A DNA stretch of 11,088 bases, from positions 1 to 11,088 of the IMG/VR virus record IMGVR_UViG_3300029573_000021. One strand, 5' to 3'. The notes under the pieces are model-generated. The model searched no databases and was not told where the DNA came from. It worked only from the letters and a program-made list of their open reading frames with translations. The stretch is from a virus. The translations under genes were made by a program, and so were the position numbers. This document shows positions 632 through 10,520 of this stretch, one piece after another. Position 1 is the first letter of the stretch; each line of letters opens with the position of its first letter.

Positions 632-659
632 AGTTGCCGAGTGTCACTACTTTTTGCCG
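632..659 (-). promoter_or_regulatory. Copy 2 of a repeated intergenic element: an exact 15-mer AGTTGCCGAGTGTCA plus a second TTGCCG hexamer 20 bp away.
   Basis: The 15-mer at 632..646 is identical to 1180..1194. TTGCCG occurs at 634..639 and 654..659. The element sits directly after the terS stop (647..649) and 34 nt upstream of ATG 597. Confidence 0.45.
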
Positions 660-1144
660 GACTTTACGGGAGGATCAAATGGCAGGGACGCCAAAAGAAT
701 CATAAAGTTCTCTCCTGCATCTACTTTCATCTTCTCTGGTGCATAGGCTCCATCCATCTTGTTGAGCTCGGCAATGGCTGCAATTTTCGATGGCATCTTG
801 AATTTCATGCCATTTTCATCAATGGAAGACTCTTGGCAAAGCTCTGACGTGTTGTCAATATCACCGATGGGAGTTGTCACAACGCGGGAAAGCCATTCCA
901 TGCGTTCCTGCTTGGTCAGCACGGCGGATTTATTCAACTGGGCGTTCAATTCGTCAATCATTCGCACAATTTCAGCATCTTTGGACAAACGGGAAGCCGC
1001 CTTACTTGCCGCCTCATTGCTCATGTCCTTGCGTTTGTAAGCCTTACGGTATGCGTCCGCCTTGGACAATTTTCCATCAACCAGGAGCCTTGCAAACTCC
1101 TTCTTCTTCTCCGTCGTCCTGGATTTGTTACCCTCTCTCTTCAT
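647..1144 (-). CDS. terS: Terminase small subunit (Terminase_2 / P27-type family)
   Basis: 165 aa. The N-terminal pattern KKKEFARLLVDGKLSKADAYRKAYKRKDMSNEAASKAASRLSKDAEIVRMIDEL, followed by ...KIAAIAELNKMDG, matches the usual HTH-like N-terminus and the conserved ALELLGK-like segment of small terminases. A GGAGG lies 13 nt upstream of the ATG, which is long spacing. Confidence 0.8.
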   Translation of the reverse strand: MKREGNKSRTTEKKKEFARLLVDGKLSKADAYRKAYKRKDMSNEAASKAASRLSKDAEIVRMIDELNAQLNKSAVLTKQERMEWLSRVVTTPIGDIDNTSELCQESSIDENGMKFKMPSKIAAIAELNKMDGAYAPEKMKVDAGENFMILLASLPFDPPVKSGKK

Positions 1145-1213: not shown

Positions 1214-1501
1214 TCAACCTGCTGACTTTGAATCCTCAACTCCATCCAAAAAATCACGCCCCTGCTTGCTCAAATAATGCACACAGGGACGTGACCCGGT
1301 TTTGACCACGTCGCCAGTCCTTGCCAGGTAATCCAGCCTGTGGGACACGTTACTGGGGTCCAGATGGCACCTGTCAGCAATCTCCCGTGACGTTCTTCCC
1401 GGATGATCTCGGACCTCCATCAGGATAAGCAGTTGCGACGGCCGCACCCTCTGGCGGACAATGTTCCGCAACAGGTCTTTTCTGACTGACGACTCGTTCA
1501 T
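1214..1501 (-). CDS. Winged helix-turn-helix transcriptional regulator (MarR/ArsR-like)
   Basis: 95 aa. The segment LLILMEVRDHPGRTSREIADRCHLDPSNVSHRLDYLARTGDVVK is a typical wHTH recognition-helix region. It has an ATGA overlap with the upstream DnaC-like gene, and an SD (GGGAGGG) is embedded in that gene's 3' end. Confidence 0.7.
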   Translation of the reverse strand: MNESSVRKDLLRNIVRQRVRPSQLLILMEVRDHPGRTSREIADRCHLDPSNVSHRLDYLARTGDVVKTGSRPCVHYLSKQGRDFLDGVEDSKSAG

Positions 1502-2121
1502 TCTCCCTCCCTTCTCATGTAGCGTTCAAAGCAGTAGTCCGGCGCGTCCTCGACCCTGCATACCACGTTTTCGCCCCGGTACAGGCGGGAGGCGATACGG
1601 GCATCCAAATGTTCCCCGATATGTTTCGGCAGCAGGTTGGAGGTGAGCATCGTCCATTTCCCGAGCCGTCCGTCAACAACACGGTTCAGCGCGGACAGAA
1701 TGGAAGGCGTGGTGTTCTCAGCTCCGATGTCGTCCAGAATCAGCACGTACACCTCTTTGACCAGATACTCCACGAATGCCCAGTCCCCGGAACGAAGCAT
1801 GGAAACCACCTTTTGCCACTTCCAAAGCTGGATTGGAATCGTGGGGCGCTCTTTGACCAATGCAGTCCTCACGGACTCCGCCAGATGCGTCTTGCCCACC
1901 CCGGAAGCCCCCAACAGGGAAAGCCAGCGGCGCGGACGAACCTTGTTCACCACGTCGTTGATGAACCACTGTGCCTCGCGGTGCATGGCTTGAACCTCTG
2001 GGTGCACTCGCTCGTCAAAGCCGCCCATATCGTACCGTACAGGCTTGTAATTGCGGACAATCCCGTTTTGAGATGGCGCAAGGGCAACTTGCCCAGCCAA
2101 GTGTTGAATATCATCCATCAT
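1498..2121 (-). CDS. DnaC/IstB-like AAA+ ATPase (replicative helicase loader)
   Basis: 207 aa. Walker A is LLGASGVGKTHLA and Walker B is VLILDDIG. The gene is short and sits directly downstream of, and overlaps (ATGA at 2118..2121), a replication-organizer-like gene. AAGGAG lies 7 nt upstream. Confidence 0.85.
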   Translation of the reverse strand: MMDDIQHLAGQVALAPSQNGIVRNYKPVRYDMGGFDERVHPEVQAMHREAQWFINDVVNKVRPRRWLSLLGASGVGKTHLAESVRTALVKERPTIPIQLWKWQKVVSMLRSGDWAFVEYLVKEVYVLILDDIGAENTTPSILSALNRVVDGRLGKWTMLTSNLLPKHIGEHLDARIASRLYRGENVVCRVEDAPDYCFERYMRREGE

Positions 2122-2861
2122 TCGTATCTCCTTCCTGCGTTGGCGTCCTTCCGTCCAGATGGACCTTGTTGCCGCCCATGCTGCACATTATTGGTTGCCC
2201 AGGAGCGGGCATACTTGCGGGCCGCCGGCTTCCAATCGGCAAGAGGAATCCCCTTGCTGTCCCGCCAGCCACGGGCGCTGAAATCATCAAAAAACGACTC
2301 TGCGCACCGTTTCAGTTCGTCTCCCTTGGGAGTCATAAGCTGGGCCGCCATGAAAAGCCGCACTTCCTCCGCACTCCGTGGGAACTGTTCTACACCCCTG
2401 TTTACAGAGCACGGCTCCGACTCCGTATACGTCTTCGTCTCCGTCTCCGTATAAGCGGTGGATTTCCGTGACTCACCGTTATTCACCGTGGATTCCCGTG
2501 AACTACCGTGACTCACTGTATTACACGGTGAATCACCGTCAGGAAGCGGGAACTTGGGCTTACTCTGTCTGCGCTGCCCGAAATTGATGATCTGCACATA
2601 ATCCTTGCCCCCGACACAGTATGCCCTTACAAGCCCGGCTTCCTCCGTTTCATGGAGGCAGTCTTGAATGTCCTGGTTACTGACTTTGTCAAGGTGCAGG
2701 GGAAATAAGCGAGTCCTCAATACCGTTGGTCGAGCGTCAAACAGGCCGTAGTCATCCGCCACCAGCAAAAGCCGATGGAAGAAACACTCGGTTCGCCACG
2801 ACAAAGCCGCTACCTTTTCCGAATCGAGAAACCCTTCTCGTATCATGCGTGATGTTGCCAT
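2118..2861 (-). CDS. Putative phage replication initiator / replisome organizer (lambda O-like role), a two-domain protein with a repeat-bearing linker
   Basis: 247 aa. The N-terminal domain (FLDSEKVAALSWRTECFFHRLLLVADDYGLFDARPTVLRTRLFP...GKDYVQIINFGQRRQ) resembles N-termini of prophage replication/DnaD-like organizers. The C-terminal domain contains FFDDFSARGWRDSKGIPLADWKPAARKYARSW. Pairing with the DnaC-like loader and the internal iteron-like array supports the role. The family assignment is from memory only. Confidence 0.55.
   Translation of the reverse strand: MATSRMIREGFLDSEKVAALSWRTECFFHRLLLVADDYGLFDARPTVLRTRLFPLHLDKVSNQDIQDCLHETEEAGLVRAYCVGGKDYVQIINFGQRRQSKPKFPLPDGDSPCNTVSHGSSRESTVNNGESRKSTAYTETETKTYTESEPCSVNRGVEQFPRSAEEVRLFMAAQLMTPKGDELKRCAESFFDDFSARGWRDSKGIPLADWKPAARKYARSWATNNVQHGRQQGPSGRKDANAGRRYE
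2454..2543. repeat. Array of about nine tandem 10-bp units (consensus yaCCGTGa.t) ending in an inverted repeat; candidate origin iterons
   Basis: CCGT starts at 2466, 2476, 2486, 2496, 2506 and 2536, with CTGT at 2516 and CGGT at 2456 and 2526, all in exact 10-bp phase. The 11-mer CCGTGACTCAC is exact at 2466..2476 and 2506..2516. An inverted repeat ACGGTGA-a-TCACCGT lies at 2525..2539. Just upstream are CTCCGTATA x2 (2421..2429, 2445..2453) and a GTCTYC x3 run (2431..2448). Confidence 0.55.
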
Positions 2862-2862
2862 A

Positions 2863-3675
2863 TCAAAAAAGCGTCAGTTGGGGGTTGTAGTTGAGCCACA
2901 GGCATTCAATCTTCTTGCCGCCCTGTGTGTCGTGGGAGACCTTGCATTCTTTCCGCCAGCCGTCCAGATAGGCGGAATAAAGCTCGGAATCGTAGCCGGA
3001 TAGGACAACCTTGCCTTTCAAGGTCTGGAGGAAAACAAGAAGCCGTTCATGGTCCTCTTGGTCGTACTCATGCGCGTACCTCACGCGGTTGCCGAGGGTA
3101 GATTGCACATAGGGAGGATCCACGTAATGCAGTGTATCCGGCGTATCGTACCGGGACATGACCTGCAGAGCATCCATGTTGTTGATCTCGATATTCCGGT
3201 TCCGGAGTTCGGCCGCACATTCTCGCACTACGGCCGGATATTCCCGCCATGTCTGCGGGTAGGGTGTTGTTCTCAATAGACCATTACGTTTGAACCCCGG
3301 CTTGTGAATACCTCCGCCGTAGGACATCATGGAGTTGACGGCAAAGCGGAGAGCATCTTCGACTGGATCTTCCGCGATTTCAAATGACCTGGCATAGGCT
3401 TCTTGTGCGTATGGCGTCAATTCCAACAGACTGGCCAGCCGCGCGGATTTTTCCGTATCGCGCAAAACCTCGAAGAAGTTCACCACCCGGTCATAAAGGT
3501 CGTTATAGACCTCCATCCATGCAGGCTGCTTGTTAAGCAACACAGCCCCGGAACCTCCGAACGGTTCAACATAGATTTTGTGAGGCGGGAAAAAGCTGAT
3601 AATCCAGGGGGCGATTCTGTTCTTGCCTCCAAGGTATCGGGCCAGAGCCCTTTTCCGTGGTGCTCTAGTGTTCAT
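2863..3675 (-). CDS. DNA adenine methyltransferase, D12 class (Dam-like); no cognate restriction gene in the window
   Basis: 270 aa. YLGGKNRIAPWI is present, motif I is VEPFGGSGAV and motif IV is YVDPPYV. The order and spacing are typical of MethyltransfD12 enzymes. Target specificity cannot be read from the sequence. Confidence 0.9.
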   Translation of the reverse strand: MNTRAPRKRALARYLGGKNRIAPWIISFFPPHKIYVEPFGGSGAVLLNKQPAWMEVYNDLYDRVVNFFEVLRDTEKSARLASLLELTPYAQEAYARSFEIAEDPVEDALRFAVNSMMSYGGGIHKPGFKRNGLLRTTPYPQTWREYPAVVRECAAELRNRNIEINNMDALQVMSRYDTPDTLHYVDPPYVQSTLGNRVRYAHEYDQEDHERLLVFLQTLKGKVVLSGYDSELYSAYLDGWRKECKVSHDTQGGKKIECLWLNYNPQLTLF

Positions 3676-6149: not shown

Positions 6150-7178
6150 TTAATGTTCAAAAGTGCCAAAGGAGGGCGCATCCTCCGGTACATCCAGGCC
6201 GGGAATACCGTCTTCCGGCGCCGGAGCGGTTACAGGCGGCGGGGCCTGCGTCGTCTTGGGGGCCGCCTTGGGAGCGGGAGCAGATACAGGAGTCTTCGGC
6301 AGGTCGGGTTTCCTGGCGGGCTGGTCGTCATCCGGGAACACTTCCTTCACCCGCACCATACCATCAACAATGCCGTTATAAATATTGCTTAAATCTCGCA
6401 ATTCATTTACGGTCATTTCTTCAAGCTTGTGCCCCAATTTGGTTTCGAGCAGGGCGCGCGTCACTCCATAAGCTAAAAAATTAGCTTCCAGGGATCGGAG
6501 AATATCAGCCTTATCACGCTTAAATCCACTCTCCTGCGTATTTTTTACGGCTTCCAGCGCTTCATCAGTCAACCAGCCGGGAAGTACCTGCAAGATGCAG
6601 GCGCGGATGCGGCGAGAAGCCATATTGGCGCACAGTTCGTAAACATCCCGTTCGTTATCAAGGGCGACACGCAGCATTTTTCCAGTCTTTTTCCCTTTGG
6701 AATCAGTCTCATTCTTATCGCGGGTATGAGGTACAGAGAAAGCAATTTCCCGGCGAACATTGGTCTCCTTGTCAAAACAATAGGCAAGACATTCGGACAC
6801 ATTGCAGCCGTTTCCATCTGCTCCCTTCGGGTCCCAATGGCGGGCAACTTCCTTCCATCCGGCTTCCGCATTGCCCCATGCGCCAATCAGCGCTTCCGCC
6901 AAGCGGATGCTAGGGCCCGTCACGGTCGTATTTCCGCGGGGATAGGAATAAGTGGCGGATTGCGCCAACTTCGGTTGAGCACAAGCCTGTTTCATTCTCA
7001 AGGTCACTTCAGCTAAATCCCGCGGAAACTGCTTGGCGATCCAAATGGAAGCCAGCACGGAAGTAACGGCTGCATTGCTTGTCATGGCAGCCAGGGCTCC
7101 GCCACTGGCGGGAGCCTGAACGGCAAAAGGATTGCCTGGTGCTTGATTGGTGAGTTCGTTTGTTGTATTCGTATTCAC
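6150..7178 (-). CDS. Putative single-strand annealing / recombination protein (function inferred from context), with a Pro/Ala-rich tail
   Basis: 342 aa and clearly coding (long ORF with no competing frame). Its position immediately upstream of the exonuclease and RusA suggests the SSAP partner of an exo/annealase pair. GPSIRLAEALIGAWGN looks like a conserved core, but I cannot place the family. The annotated start is GTG 7178 without an SD, so the start is uncertain. The C-terminal tail is PKTPVSAPAPKAAPKTTQAPPPVTAPAPEDGIPGLDVPEDAPSFGTFEH. Confidence 0.5.
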   Translation of the reverse strand: MNTNTTNELTNQAPGNPFAVQAPASGGALAAMTSNAAVTSVLASIWIAKQFPRDLAEVTLRMKQACAQPKLAQSATYSYPRGNTTVTGPSIRLAEALIGAWGNAEAGWKEVARHWDPKGADGNGCNVSECLAYCFDKETNVRREIAFSVPHTRDKNETDSKGKKTGKMLRVALDNERDVYELCANMASRRIRACILQVLPGWLTDEALEAVKNTQESGFKRDKADILRSLEANFLAYGVTRALLETKLGHKLEEMTVNELRDLSNIYNGIVDGMVRVKEVFPDDDQPARKPDLPKTPVSAPAPKAAPKTTQAPPPVTAPAPEDGIPGLDVPEDAPSFGTFEH

Positions 7179-10232: not shown

Positions 10233-10477
10233 ATGTGCGAGGGTTCATTTTTTGTGTCATAATATGTCTCCCTTTACATACTCCTGCATCCGTGGATGCG
10301 GCTTTCTTGGGGTGCTATACGGTATACTGTACAGGTGACCCGTTAAAAACTTATGGACAAGACGCTAAATCCCTCCGCGATGCCAATTCTCGTCAGCACA
10401 CGACGGAATGGGCCTTGATTTTCCTACGTTTTGCGCAGTTTTGAGCGCACCTGAAAGCACCTGACAGAAAAAAGTAC

Positions 10478-10517
10478 CCTGTACATGCGACTGTACATTG
10501 TCTAAGGACTGTACAGC
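10478..10517. promoter_or_regulatory. Three closely spaced CTGTACA boxes immediately upstream of int; candidate operator or arm-type sites
   Basis: The palindromic core TGTACA occurs at 10480, 10492 and 10510 (as CCTGTACAT, GACTGTACAT, GACTGTACAG). A fourth copy, ACTGTACAG, is at 10326..10334. Only one other TGTACA exists in the whole window (3713). The last box ends 5 nt before the int ATG. Confidence 0.4.
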
Positions 10518-10520
10518 ACT

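What the first reader, a model, noticed from the sequence alone, without database searches (positions are those of the whole stretch)
2421..2543. A 10-bp-phased repeat array inside the linker of the replication gene is a candidate origin of replication
About nine consecutive 10-bp units (consensus yaCCGTGa.t) run from 2454 to 2543. CCGT starts at 2466, 2476, 2486, 2496, 2506 and 2536, with one-mismatch versions at 2456, 2516 and 2526. An exact 11-mer, CCGTGACTCAC, occurs at 2466 and 2506. The array ends in the inverted repeat ACGGTGA-a-TCACCGT (2525..2539). Just upstream are CTCCGTATA x2 and GTCTYC x3. One helical turn per unit places all sites on one DNA face. The array maps to the Ser/Thr-rich, low-complexity linker (TVSHGSSRESTVNNGESRKSTAYTETETKTYTE) between the two domains of the putative initiator. 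This is the same arrangement as the lambda ori iterons inside gene O (established). A 10-nt period is not a codon multiple, which favours selection at the DNA level.
Basis: partly seen in the sequence, partly recalled or inferred. Interest (0 to 1): 0.6.

Follow-up and report, generated by a model that had tools for sequence, protein, structure and literature searches.

The report
Replication origin inside phage initiator gene
Nine DNA repeats spaced one helical turn apart sit inside the replication-initiator gene of an Akkermansia gut phage; they are kept as DNA rather than as protein code and are swapped together with the protein's DNA-binding domain, so they are very probably a lambda-style replication origin, a familiar design in a new host group.

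Summary
Window 2451-2540 holds nine 10-bp units, CAC(G/C)GTGAnT on the coding (minus) strand. This is the most 10-periodic stretch of the 35.6-kb record.

The repeat is a DNA signal, not a peptide signal:
- Synonymous recoding never reproduces the periodicity (0 of 20,000 resamplings).
- Variation among relatives ignores codon position and follows position within the unit.

In about 100 related loci, from Akkermansia and Verrucomicrobiota phages plus four GenBank phages, each type of the winged-helix N-terminal domain carries its own phased motif at the same place. The array and the N-domain are exchanged as one cassette (window 2457-2852). The C-terminal domain instead travels with the downstream DnaC-like loader or DnaB-like helicase.

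A second DNA element, (GAGWCG)7 at 2412-2453, follows the array. All three mosaic junctions fall in it or at its edge.

Best reading (confidence 0.72): a lambda-O-like origin inside the initiator gene.

Points against:
- There is no AT-rich unwinding element nearby.
- There is no sequence homology to lambda O.
- There is no experiment.

This is a new member of a known kind. The scan has reported the same layout, iterons plus a hexamer tract, on other DNA before. Its practical value is as a candidate replicon for Akkermansia genetics.

The parts
2118..2861 (-). Replication-initiator gene (247 aa, P0001): N-terminal winged-helix domain, linker carrying the repeats, C-terminal partner-specific domain
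   Evidence: PHROG 1408/2149 'replication initiation protein', E 1.6e-17. No Pfam, NCBIfam or PDB sequence hit. Public homologues are named only 'hypothetical protein', Akkermansia muciniphila.
2541..2861 (-). N-terminal domain (aa 1-107), predicted winged helix-turn-helix; the proposed iteron reader
   Evidence: AlphaFold2 model on a 13-sequence alignment, pLDDT 82. It matches BFVD models named 'Replisome organizer' at TM 0.79-0.85, E down to 4e-9. Matches to PDB winged-helix regulators (CodY-C, Fur, ArsR, TubR) are weak, E 4e-3 and TM about 0.5. Variable sites fall at codon positions 1/2/3 as 5/5/32, which indicates purifying selection on the protein.
2451..2540 (-). Iteron array: nine 10-bp units, consensus CAC(G/C)GTGAnT. 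The core is a palindrome around a free central base.
   Evidence: Unit positions 2, 3 and 5 (A, C, G) are nearly invariant, at 90, 96 and 93 of 99 units. The centre base is G 51, C 33, A 12, T 3.
2412..2453 (-). Hexamer tract (TATACG GAGACG GAGACG AAGACG TATACG GAGTCG GAGCCG): seven CpG at exact 6-bp spacing, translated as YTETETKTYTESEP. It is the site of module exchange and of copy-number slippage.
   Evidence: It is the longest CG-every-6 chain in the record, n=7 with the next at n=5. Mosaic junctions lie at 2456/2457, 2421/2422 and 2415/2416. L009 and L010 differ by one GAGACG unit. The same kind of tract is read in another frame or inverted in distant relatives.
2121..2414 (-). C-terminal domain (aa about 150-247); its type goes with the downstream replication partner
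   Evidence: The C-domain type of the window goes with a DnaC-like loader that is 89-100% identical, whatever the N-domain type. Other C-domain types go with a DnaB-like helicase or with no loader.
1498..2121 (-). DnaC-like helicase-loader gene (207 aa, P0002), overlapping the initiator stop by 4 bases
   Evidence: PHROG 50, E 1.6e-22. Pfam Bac_DnaA and IstB_IS21 ATPase domains score above their cut-offs.
2457..2852 (-). The exchange cassette, array plus N-domain: the only part of the replication module without DNA similarity to locus L011
   Evidence: In blastn of L011 against the window, similarity covers 1490-2456 (82%) and resumes at 2853-2890 (97%).

Best explanation
The array is the set of binding sites (iterons) of this phage's own replication initiator, written into the linker-coding part of the initiator gene. 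Together with the adjoining hexamer tract it forms the phage's replication origin, on the plan of ori-lambda inside gene O.

Proposed mechanism:
1. The winged-helix N-domain (aa 1-107) binds the nine CAC(G/C)GTG units. These lie one helical turn apart on one face of the DNA, so the bound proteins form a bent or wrapped oligomer.
2. The C-domain recruits the DnaC-like loader encoded just downstream, and through it the host DnaB helicase.
3. Strand opening happens at or beside the array. Transcription through the gene, or the (GAGWCG)n tract, may help.

Shown here:
- The repeats are real.
- Selection acts on the DNA, not the peptide.
- The array and the N-domain are inherited and exchanged together.
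- The C-domain goes with the loader or helicase.
- The same layout is found across the whole protein family.

Inferred:
- That the N-domain actually binds the array.
- That replication starts here.
- Where the DNA opens.
For: 1. DNA-level selection.
- Resampling synonymous codons for the same 30 residues gives period-10 identity 0.362 +/- 0.045 against 0.575 observed. None of 20,000 resamplings reaches the observed value.
- Among nine distinct arrays of close relatives, variable columns are spread 10/7/10 over codon positions. In the N-domain they are 5/5/32.
- Unit core positions 2, 3 and 5 vary in 3 of 27 columns, against 24 of 63 elsewhere (Fisher p 0.012).
- Central G/C flips change residues (NNGESRK to NHREPRK or THREPRK) but keep the palindromic core.
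- The Akkermansia genome locus L098 has only 58-59% N-domain identity and a different linker peptide, yet carries the same CACSGTG motif in 10-bp phase.

2. Co-variation with the N-domain.
- The window's cluster (16 loci) has 9.6 CACSG half-sites per 130-nt linker, against 0.5 in the rest of the gene, and no GTWAC.
- The L035 cluster (35 loci) has 4.0 GTWAC against 0.0, and no CACSG.
- Other N-domain types carry AAACAGTTG, GCAYATGC (11-bp period) or AAACATNTG.
- In 10 of 14 types the best period-10/11 window of the roughly 5-kb locus lies in the linker.

3. Cassette exchange. The swap boundaries map to 2456/2457 and 2852/2853.

4. Other candidate binders are excluded.
- L013 and L011 share 92%-identical DNA over the MarR-like and TerS genes but have different arrays.
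- The window and L013 share the array, but their MarR-like proteins are 31% identical and their TerS proteins 59%.
- L006 and L007 have neither gene nearby.

5. The C-domain type goes with the loader or helicase, as expected for a lambda O / P type division of labour.

6. Same position as known cases.
- The annotated lambda iterons lie at gene nt 349-433 of O.
- In lambda the origin is in the middle of gene O (PMC7466680). SPP1 oriL lies within gene 38 and is bound by gp38 (PMC6316719).

7. The N-domain fold matches predicted 'replisome organizer' proteins at TM about 0.8.
Against: - No experiment shows binding or initiation.
- There is no AT-rich, easily melted stretch next to the array. The 40-bp stacking energies across 2401-2560 are -56 to -59 kcal/mol, against a record mean of -58.9. 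The weakest nearby spots are at 2097 and 2841.
- There is no detectable sequence homology to lambda O (hhalign probability 0.1%) or to any Pfam or PDB entry.
- Ten-bp units are shorter and more tightly packed than classical 18-22-bp iterons, so the stoichiometry is unclear.
- The same record holds a second initiator-loader pair with its own repeat cluster. The window's array therefore need not be the only origin, or the one in use. The record is two contigs joined by 10 N, so that pair may belong to another phage.
Confidence: 0.72

Rival explanations
1. The initiator does bind the array, but the array serves only regulation: autorepression by roadblock inside its own gene, titration, or copy control by handcuffing. 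Replication would start elsewhere in the genome.
For: Co-variation with the N-domain shows only that protein and sites belong together, not what binding does. No AT-rich unwinding element is adjacent. A second initiator module exists in the record.
Against: Wherever this layout has been tested, the in-gene repeats are the origin: lambda (PMC7466680) and SPP1 (PMC6316719). The layout, including a second repeat tract next to the sites, is kept across the whole family in several phyla. No other phased cluster of the motif exists in the window.
Confidence: 0.13
2. The array is bound by a different protein of the phage or of the host. Examples are the MarR-like winged-helix protein (1214-1501), the small terminase as a pac site, or a partition or host factor.
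For: Two more DNA-binding proteins, MarR-like and TerS-like, are encoded within 1.5 kb downstream. Phased repeats are also typical of pac sites and centromeres. Weak PDB fold matches include the centromere binders TubR and AspA.
Against: The array type does not follow the MarR-like or TerS type and does not follow the C-domain or loader. It follows only the N-domain, with swap boundaries that enclose exactly array plus N-domain. A host factor would not explain at least five different motifs within Akkermansia and Verrucomicrobiota phages.
Confidence: 0.05
3. The repeat is only a by-product with no function as DNA: a low-complexity peptide linker with a 10-residue (30-nt) repeat, or a slippage- or conversion-generated microsatellite.
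For: The strongest self-match offset is 30 nt (0.49-0.63), a codon multiple. The linker is Ser/Thr-rich. The neighbouring hexamer tract clearly slips in copy number.
Against: - Periodicity at 10 nt exceeds every one of 20,000 synonymous recodings.
- Variation shows no third-position excess but respects unit position.
- Peptides differ while the DNA motif and phase persist (L098).
- Neutral slippage would not give each N-domain type its own motif at the same place.
Confidence: 0.04
4. The palindromic units act at the RNA level, as an mRNA structure that slows translation or affects stability.
For: The units can pair. The minimum free energy of the 156-nt stretch is -53.5 kcal/mol.
Against: The z-score is only -1.84, and 10 of 200 shuffles fold as well. 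Strict 10-nt phasing and motif exchange with the N-domain have no RNA rationale.
Confidence: 0.02

Closest known systems
ori-lambda inside gene O of phage lambda and the lambdoid/Stx phages (O initiator, P loader)
   Same: - The binding-site repeats lie in the middle of the initiator gene, between an N-terminal DNA-binding part and a C-terminal part that works with the loader encoded next. The annotated lambda iterons are at gene nt 349-433 (PMC7466680); here the array is at nt 322-411.
- A second, different sequence tract follows the repeats. In lambda it is a purine-rich A/T tract.
- Origin specificity and loader specificity are separable modules.
   Different: - There is no sequence homology and no Pfam Phage_rep_O hit.
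- Here there are nine 10-bp units in strict helical phase. Lambda has four 18-bp palindromes about 20-24 bp apart.
- The following tract is (GAGWCG)7 at 57% G+C with average stability, not an AT-rich unwinding element.
SPP1 gp38 'replisome organizer' with oriL inside gene 38, and similar lactococcal/Lactobacillus phage origins
   Same: - The origin-binding protein binds direct repeats that lie inside its own gene, and a loader and helicase are encoded downstream (PMC6316719).
- The N-domain model here matches BFVD predicted structures named 'Replisome organizer' at TM 0.79-0.85.
- TP901-1, A2 and other dairy-phage origins inside the organizer gene are cited from my own knowledge and were not checked here.
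   Different: - There is no hit to the Pfam replisome-organizer families.
- SPP1 origins have an AT-rich DUE (PMC6316719), which is absent here.
- The host phylum is Verrucomicrobiota, not Firmicutes.
PHROG 1408/2149/5810 'replication initiation protein' family (for example Mycobacterium phage Bernal13 gp48, Marinomonas phage P12026 gp37, Moorella phage MCACPph1, Stenotrophomonas phage SOVA965)
   Same: - The family is matched by sequence: E 1.6e-17, and tblastn identity of 27-31% over the N-domain.
- These GenBank phages show the same layout at gene nt about 330-460: a few motif repeats (TCGCGAGAC, GATCACCGAAC, AATGCCRC), then a short-period tandem repeat (GGAACAGG x4, GGAACAG x5, GAGAAG x6, CCTTCT x6).
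   Different: The motifs, periods and partner genes differ. None of these records annotates an origin.
Iteron plasmids (Rep proteins of pPS10, R6K, RK2, F, P1)
   Same: Winged-helix initiators bind directly repeated, helically phased sites.
   Different: Plasmid iterons are 17-22 bp, about two turns apart, lie outside the rep gene, and are read by two-winged-helix Rep_3-type proteins (own knowledge). No such Pfam hit is found here.

Membership tests
Lambda-type origin inside the initiator gene (functional class) | A cluster of repeated sites inside the initiator's coding sequence, between its N- and C-terminal domains | tested here: met
   The array is at gene nt 322-411 of 744. The annotated lambda iterons are at nt 349-433 of 900.
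Lambda-type origin inside the initiator gene (functional class) | The repeats are specified by the initiator's N-terminal DNA-binding domain | tested here: inconclusive
   Binding cannot be tested with these tools. Indirect support is strong: motif and N-domain co-vary and are exchanged as one cassette, and no other gene tracks the motif.
Lambda-type origin inside the initiator gene (functional class) | An AT-rich DNA-unwinding element next to the repeats | tested here: not met
   Stacking energy around 2401-2560 equals the record mean. The adjacent tract is 57% G+C.
Lambda-type origin inside the initiator gene (functional class) | The C-terminal part is matched to a helicase loader or helicase encoded downstream | tested here: met
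   The C-domain type co-occurs with a DnaC-like loader (89-100% identical), a DnaB-like helicase (PHROG 19, E 3e-88) or no loader, independently of the N-domain type.
Lambda-type origin inside the initiator gene (functional class) | The fragment supports initiator-dependent replication | not testable with these tools
Lambda O protein family (Pfam Phage_rep_O) | Sequence homology to lambda O | tested here: not met
   hhalign of the N-domain profile against lambda O gives probability 0.1%. There is no Pfam hit at E up to 0.1-1.
PHROG 1408 'replication initiation protein' | Significant match to the family profile | tested here: met
   E 1.6e-17 over residues 2-167. Also matches PHROGs 2149, 16167, 5810 and 12556.
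Replisome organizer (SPP1 gp38-like) | N-terminal origin-binding domain of the same fold or family | tested here: inconclusive
   The fold matches BFVD models that UniProt names 'Replisome organizer' (TM 0.79-0.85). There is no Pfam or PDB sequence match. gp38 itself was not compared.
Iteron-plasmid Rep (Rep_3 / RepA / pi) | A Rep_3-type two-winged-helix protein with 17-22-bp iterons outside the gene | tested here: not met
   There is no Pfam Rep_3 hit. The units are 10 bp and lie inside the gene.

The most novel reading that the evidence does not exclude
The short-period tandem tract that follows the iterons is a second, functional origin element conserved as DNA across this large initiator family, not a mere flexible linker.

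Its forms are (GAGWCG)7 here, GGAACAG(G), GAGAAG and CCTTCT in GenBank phages, and hexamers read in another frame or inverted in environmental relatives. It would stand in for the AT-rich unwinding region of lambda. Candidate roles are the place where strands open, where the helicase is loaded, or a single-strand binding register. It would also serve as the shared crossover point that lets phages shuffle origin specificity and loader specificity.
Probability: 0.35. Interest if true: 0.7.

Novelty: new member of a known kind. Interest (0 to 1): 0.42.

Why it matters
1. It gives a concrete, testable origin and a minimal replicon (initiator plus loader, about 1.4 kb, window 1498-2861) for phages of Akkermansia muciniphila. 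To my knowledge, replicating vectors are scarce for this gut bacterium of medical interest.

2. The relatives offer a natural series of at least five site specificities (CACSGTG, GTWAC, AACAGTTG, GCAYATGC, AAACATNTG) on one small winged-helix scaffold. This is useful for working out how such initiators read DNA.

3. It shows that a protein family named only 'hypothetical protein' in public records, with no Pfam model, is a lambda-O-like origin-binding initiator.

4. The non-AT-rich hexamer tract beside the sites raises the question of how such origins are opened.

Tried and rejected
- Protein-level repeat only: rejected by synonymous resampling and by the pattern of substitutions.
- RNA structure: the fold is not exceptional (z -1.84).
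- pac site or MarR-like operator: rejected because the array type does not follow those genes.
- Homology to lambda O: none. Pfam, NCBIfam and PDB sequence searches on the N-domain were all empty.
- AT-rich DUE or a strong purine tract next to the array: not found. Purine fraction is 0.69, and about 4% of the record's 40-nt windows reach the local peak value of 0.70, so this is not exceptional.
- Sigma-70-like promoters or terminators in 1900-3100: none.
- Cumulative GC skew: extremes at 6900 and 35425. This is not informative, because all nearby genes are on one strand.
- Circular joining of the record's ends to place the second initiator next to the first: inconclusive. The record has an internal run of 10 N at 11089-11098, so the window is a whole contig.
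- Presence of the second initiator in five related proviruses: only their own first initiator matched.
- The count of NCG codons in the hexamer tract is circular, because the tract was defined by its CpGs. I do not use it as evidence.

Full report
**1. What is there**

All genes in this part of the window are on the minus strand. Read on that strand, the repeat is nine 10-bp units at window 2540 down to 2451:
GACGGTGATT CACCGTGTAA TACAGTGAGT CACGGTAGTT CACGGGAATC CACGGTGAAT AACGGTGAGT CACGGAAATC CACCGCTTAT.

The consensus is CAC(G/C)GTGAnT. The 7-bp core is a palindrome around its central base.

Directly after it (2453-2412) comes TATACG GAGACG GAGACG AAGACG TATACG GAGTCG GAGCCG.

- The array is the most 10-periodic 100-nt stretch of the whole 35,645-bp record (z 5.7).
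- A phased triple of the core occurs five times in the array and never in 200 shuffles.
- The CpG-every-6 chain is the longest in the record (n=7; next best n=5).

**2. Gene context**

- The repeats lie in the 247-aa ORF 2118-2861(-). It matches PHROGs annotated 'replication initiation protein' (E 1.6e-17). It has no Pfam, NCBIfam or PDB sequence match.
- Its public homologues are 'hypothetical protein' of Akkermansia muciniphila.
- Its stop overlaps the start of a DnaC-like loader gene, 1498-2121.
- Upstream are two adenine methyltransferase genes. Downstream are a MarR-like gene and a TerS-like gene.
- The host assignment rests on a 63-bp match to Akkermansia phage Chambord, on related loci in Akkermansia and Verrucomicrobiota genomes, and on source names.
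- An AlphaFold2 model of residues 1-107 (pLDDT 82) is a winged helix-turn-helix. Its best structural neighbours are predicted viral proteins named 'Replisome organizer' (TM 0.79-0.85). PDB neighbours are weak matches to winged-helix regulators.

**3. DNA signal or peptide signal?**

Three tests say DNA.

- (a) I kept the 30 residues PDGDSPCNTVSHGSSRESTVNNGESRKSTA and drew synonymous codons by the record's usage. This gives period-10 identity 0.362 +/- 0.045. The real sequence has 0.575, reached by none of 20,000 draws.
- (b) Among nine distinct arrays of close relatives, 27 of 90 columns vary.
  - By codon position the variable columns are 10/7/10, so there is no third-position excess. The N-domain of the same sequences shows 5/5/32.
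  - By unit position, the core positions 2, 3 and 5 vary in 3 of 27 columns, against 24 of 63 elsewhere (p 0.012).
- (c) The central base flips between G and C. This turns CACGGTG into its own reverse complement and changes the peptide (NNGESRK to NHREPRK or THREPRK) while keeping the site.
- In the Akkermansia genome locus L098 the N-domain is only 58-59% identical and the linker peptide is different (PPCATVEHGEARCATVSHRDSP). Seven CACSGTG units in 10-bp phase are still there.

**4. Who owns the array?**

Two scans of viral contigs and one of genomes gave about 100 loci.

- Loci with the window's N-domain type carry the array whatever follows:
  - the window's own C-domain plus a DnaC-like loader;
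  - a second C-domain type plus a DnaB-like helicase (L009, L010);
  - a third, longer C-domain with no loader (L012-L018).
- L011 and about 35 other loci have a C-domain (81% aa identity) and loader (89%) close to the window's, but an N-domain only about 50% identical. Their linkers hold no CACSG at all. They hold four GTWAC motifs with centres at multiples of 10 bp.
- Motif counts per 130-nt linker:

| Cluster | Motif | In the linker | Rest of the gene |
|---|---|---|---|
| Window's cluster | CACSG | 9.6 | 0.5 |
| L035 cluster | GTWAC | 4.0 | 0.0 |

  Each cluster has none of the other's motif.
- blastn maps the exchange precisely. L011 is similar to the window over 1490-2456 and again from 2853. 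The replaced piece is therefore exactly array plus N-domain.
- Other candidate binders do not track the array:
  - L013 (CACSGTG array) and L011 (GTWAC array) share 92%-identical DNA over the MarR-like and TerS genes.
  - The window and L013 share the array, but their MarR-like proteins are 31% identical and their TerS proteins 59%.
  - L006 and L007 have the array and neither gene nearby.

**5. The pattern is family-wide**

- Further N-domain types carry other phased motifs at the same spot: CCGTWAC (L034, L099, L100), AAACAGTTG (L038, L084), GCAYATGC at 11 bp (L071), CACATGC (L085) and AAACATNTG (L087, L089).
- In 10 of 14 types the best period-10/11 window of the whole locus is in the linker.
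- Four cultured phages in GenBank with 27-31% N-domain identity (Bernal13 gp48, P12026 gp37, SOVA965, Moorella MCACPph1) show the same layout at gene nt 330-460. There are a few motif repeats, then a short-period tandem repeat: GGAACAGG x4, GGAACAG x5, GAGAAG x6 and CCTTCT x6.
- In 15 of 17 family loci the best period-4-to-9 window of the locus lies directly after the iterons.
- In the Akkermansia types this second tract is (NNNWCG)n, read as TETETK.
  - In L084 and L085 the same DNA pattern (TAGTCG GAGACG ...) is read one frame over, as VVDEGVVG.
  - In L087 and L089 it is inverted, as ACTCCG = DSDSDT.
  - So the peptide is not what is kept.
- Its copy number slips: L009 and L010 differ by one GAGACG.
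- All three mapped mosaic junctions (2456/2457, 2421/2422, 2415/2416) fall in it or at its edge.
- In lambda, the annotated iterons are likewise followed by a distinct tract, purine-rich and AT-rich.

**6. What speaks against, and what is unknown**

- Nothing here shows binding or initiation.
- There is no easily melted stretch by the array. The classical third element of lambda-type and SPP1-type origins (PMC7466680, PMC6316719) is therefore missing or replaced.
- The protein is not a detectable homologue of lambda O.
- Ten-bp units leave little room per protein. The register (CAC-S-GTG or GTGA-n-TCAC) and the stoichiometry are open.
- The record also encodes a second initiator (PHROG 2509, E 1e-59) with a DnaC-like loader at 34064-35552.
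  - Its C-domain is 55% identical to the window's.
  - Its linker holds five GTWAC motifs followed by (AGAGA)n and (ACT)n.
  - The record is two contigs joined by 10 N at 11089-11098, and five related proviruses have only one initiator. I cannot say that both modules belong to one phage.

**7. Most likely mechanism**

1. The N-domain binds the nine units on one face of the helix and builds an oligomeric, DNA-bending complex, the analogue of the lambda O-some.
2. The C-domain brings in the phage's DnaC-like loader and through it the host helicase.
3. Opening occurs at or next to the array. Transcription through the gene may help, as in lambda (PMC7466680). The hexamer tract may also play a part.

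I put 0.72 on 'origin', about 0.85 on 'sites bound by the initiator's own N-domain', and the remainder mainly on a purely regulatory role.

**8. Comparison and novelty**

- It works like ori-lambda in gene O and SPP1 oriL in gene 38. It is not a sequence member of the lambda O family.
- It is a member of PHROG 1408, a family without Pfam coverage and without an annotated origin in any record I looked at.
- It is therefore a new member of a known kind.
- Earlier agents of this scan reported the same layout on other DNA, including a hexamer repeat beside iterons kept in other reading frames (e1-419818) and a G-rich 7/8-base array (e1-2010911). My analysis reached the same points independently on this family.
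- The value here is practical (a candidate Akkermansia replicon) and comparative (a clean set of specificity swaps), rather than conceptual.

Noticed in passing
G000 record 34785-35552 (-) and 34064-34852 (-), i.e. L002:1417-2184 and L002:696-1484: A second replication-initiator gene (255 aa; PHROG 2509, E 1e-59) and a second DnaC-like loader lie in the same record. The second initiator has a different N-domain and a C-domain 55% identical to the window's. Its linker also holds a motif cluster (5 x GTWAC within GTTACAAAAAC ATGTAACGCAA ATGTAACGC...AGCGTTACA...CCGTTACC), followed by (AGAGA)n and (ACT)n. Five related proviruses have only one initiator.
   Followed up: partly
G000 record 11089-11098: A run of 10 N lies directly after the window's end. 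The window is therefore a complete contig of a two-contig record, and linkage between the early genes in the window and the late genes, tRNA and second replication module on the other contig is not proven.
   Followed up: no
window 10440-10520: The second-best period-10 stretch of the record lies just upstream of the integrase start (10521). It holds CTGTACA x3 at 10479, 10491 and 10509, and GCACCTGA x2 near 10447-10465. These may be integrase arm-type sites, attP, or an operator.
   Followed up: no
L008 versus window 2451-2861: The N-domain DNA of L008 is 309/309 identical to the window, yet its array differs at 12 of 90 positions. Arrays therefore change faster than their flanks, probably by conversion between units or by short-patch recombination.
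   Followed up: partly
L106 (Mycobacterium phage Bernal13 gp48) and L108 (Marinomonas phage P12026 gp37), gene nt about 375-450: Nearly the same repeat unit is found in the initiator genes of phages of an actinobacterium and a gammaproteobacterium: GGAACAGG x4 with period 8, and GGAACAG x5 with period 7. Neither period is a codon multiple.
   Followed up: partly
window 1214-1501 (-) and 647-1144 (-): A MarR-like winged-helix gene and a small-terminase-like gene follow the loader in the early operon. The next ORF (615-1, open-ended) is Ala/Gln/Thr-rich and fibre-like, not a large terminase.
   Followed up: no
window 2378-2587 (+): A 69-aa GTG ORF on the opposite strand overlaps the array and the hexamer tract. 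It is most likely a by-product of the repeats and was not examined further.
   Followed up: no
window 2460-2500 (coding strand GGGAATCCACGG, GGAAATCCACCG): Two junctions between units resemble DnaA boxes at 6 of 9 positions (consensus TTATCCACA, from my own knowledge). This is too weak to count as evidence.
   Followed up: no
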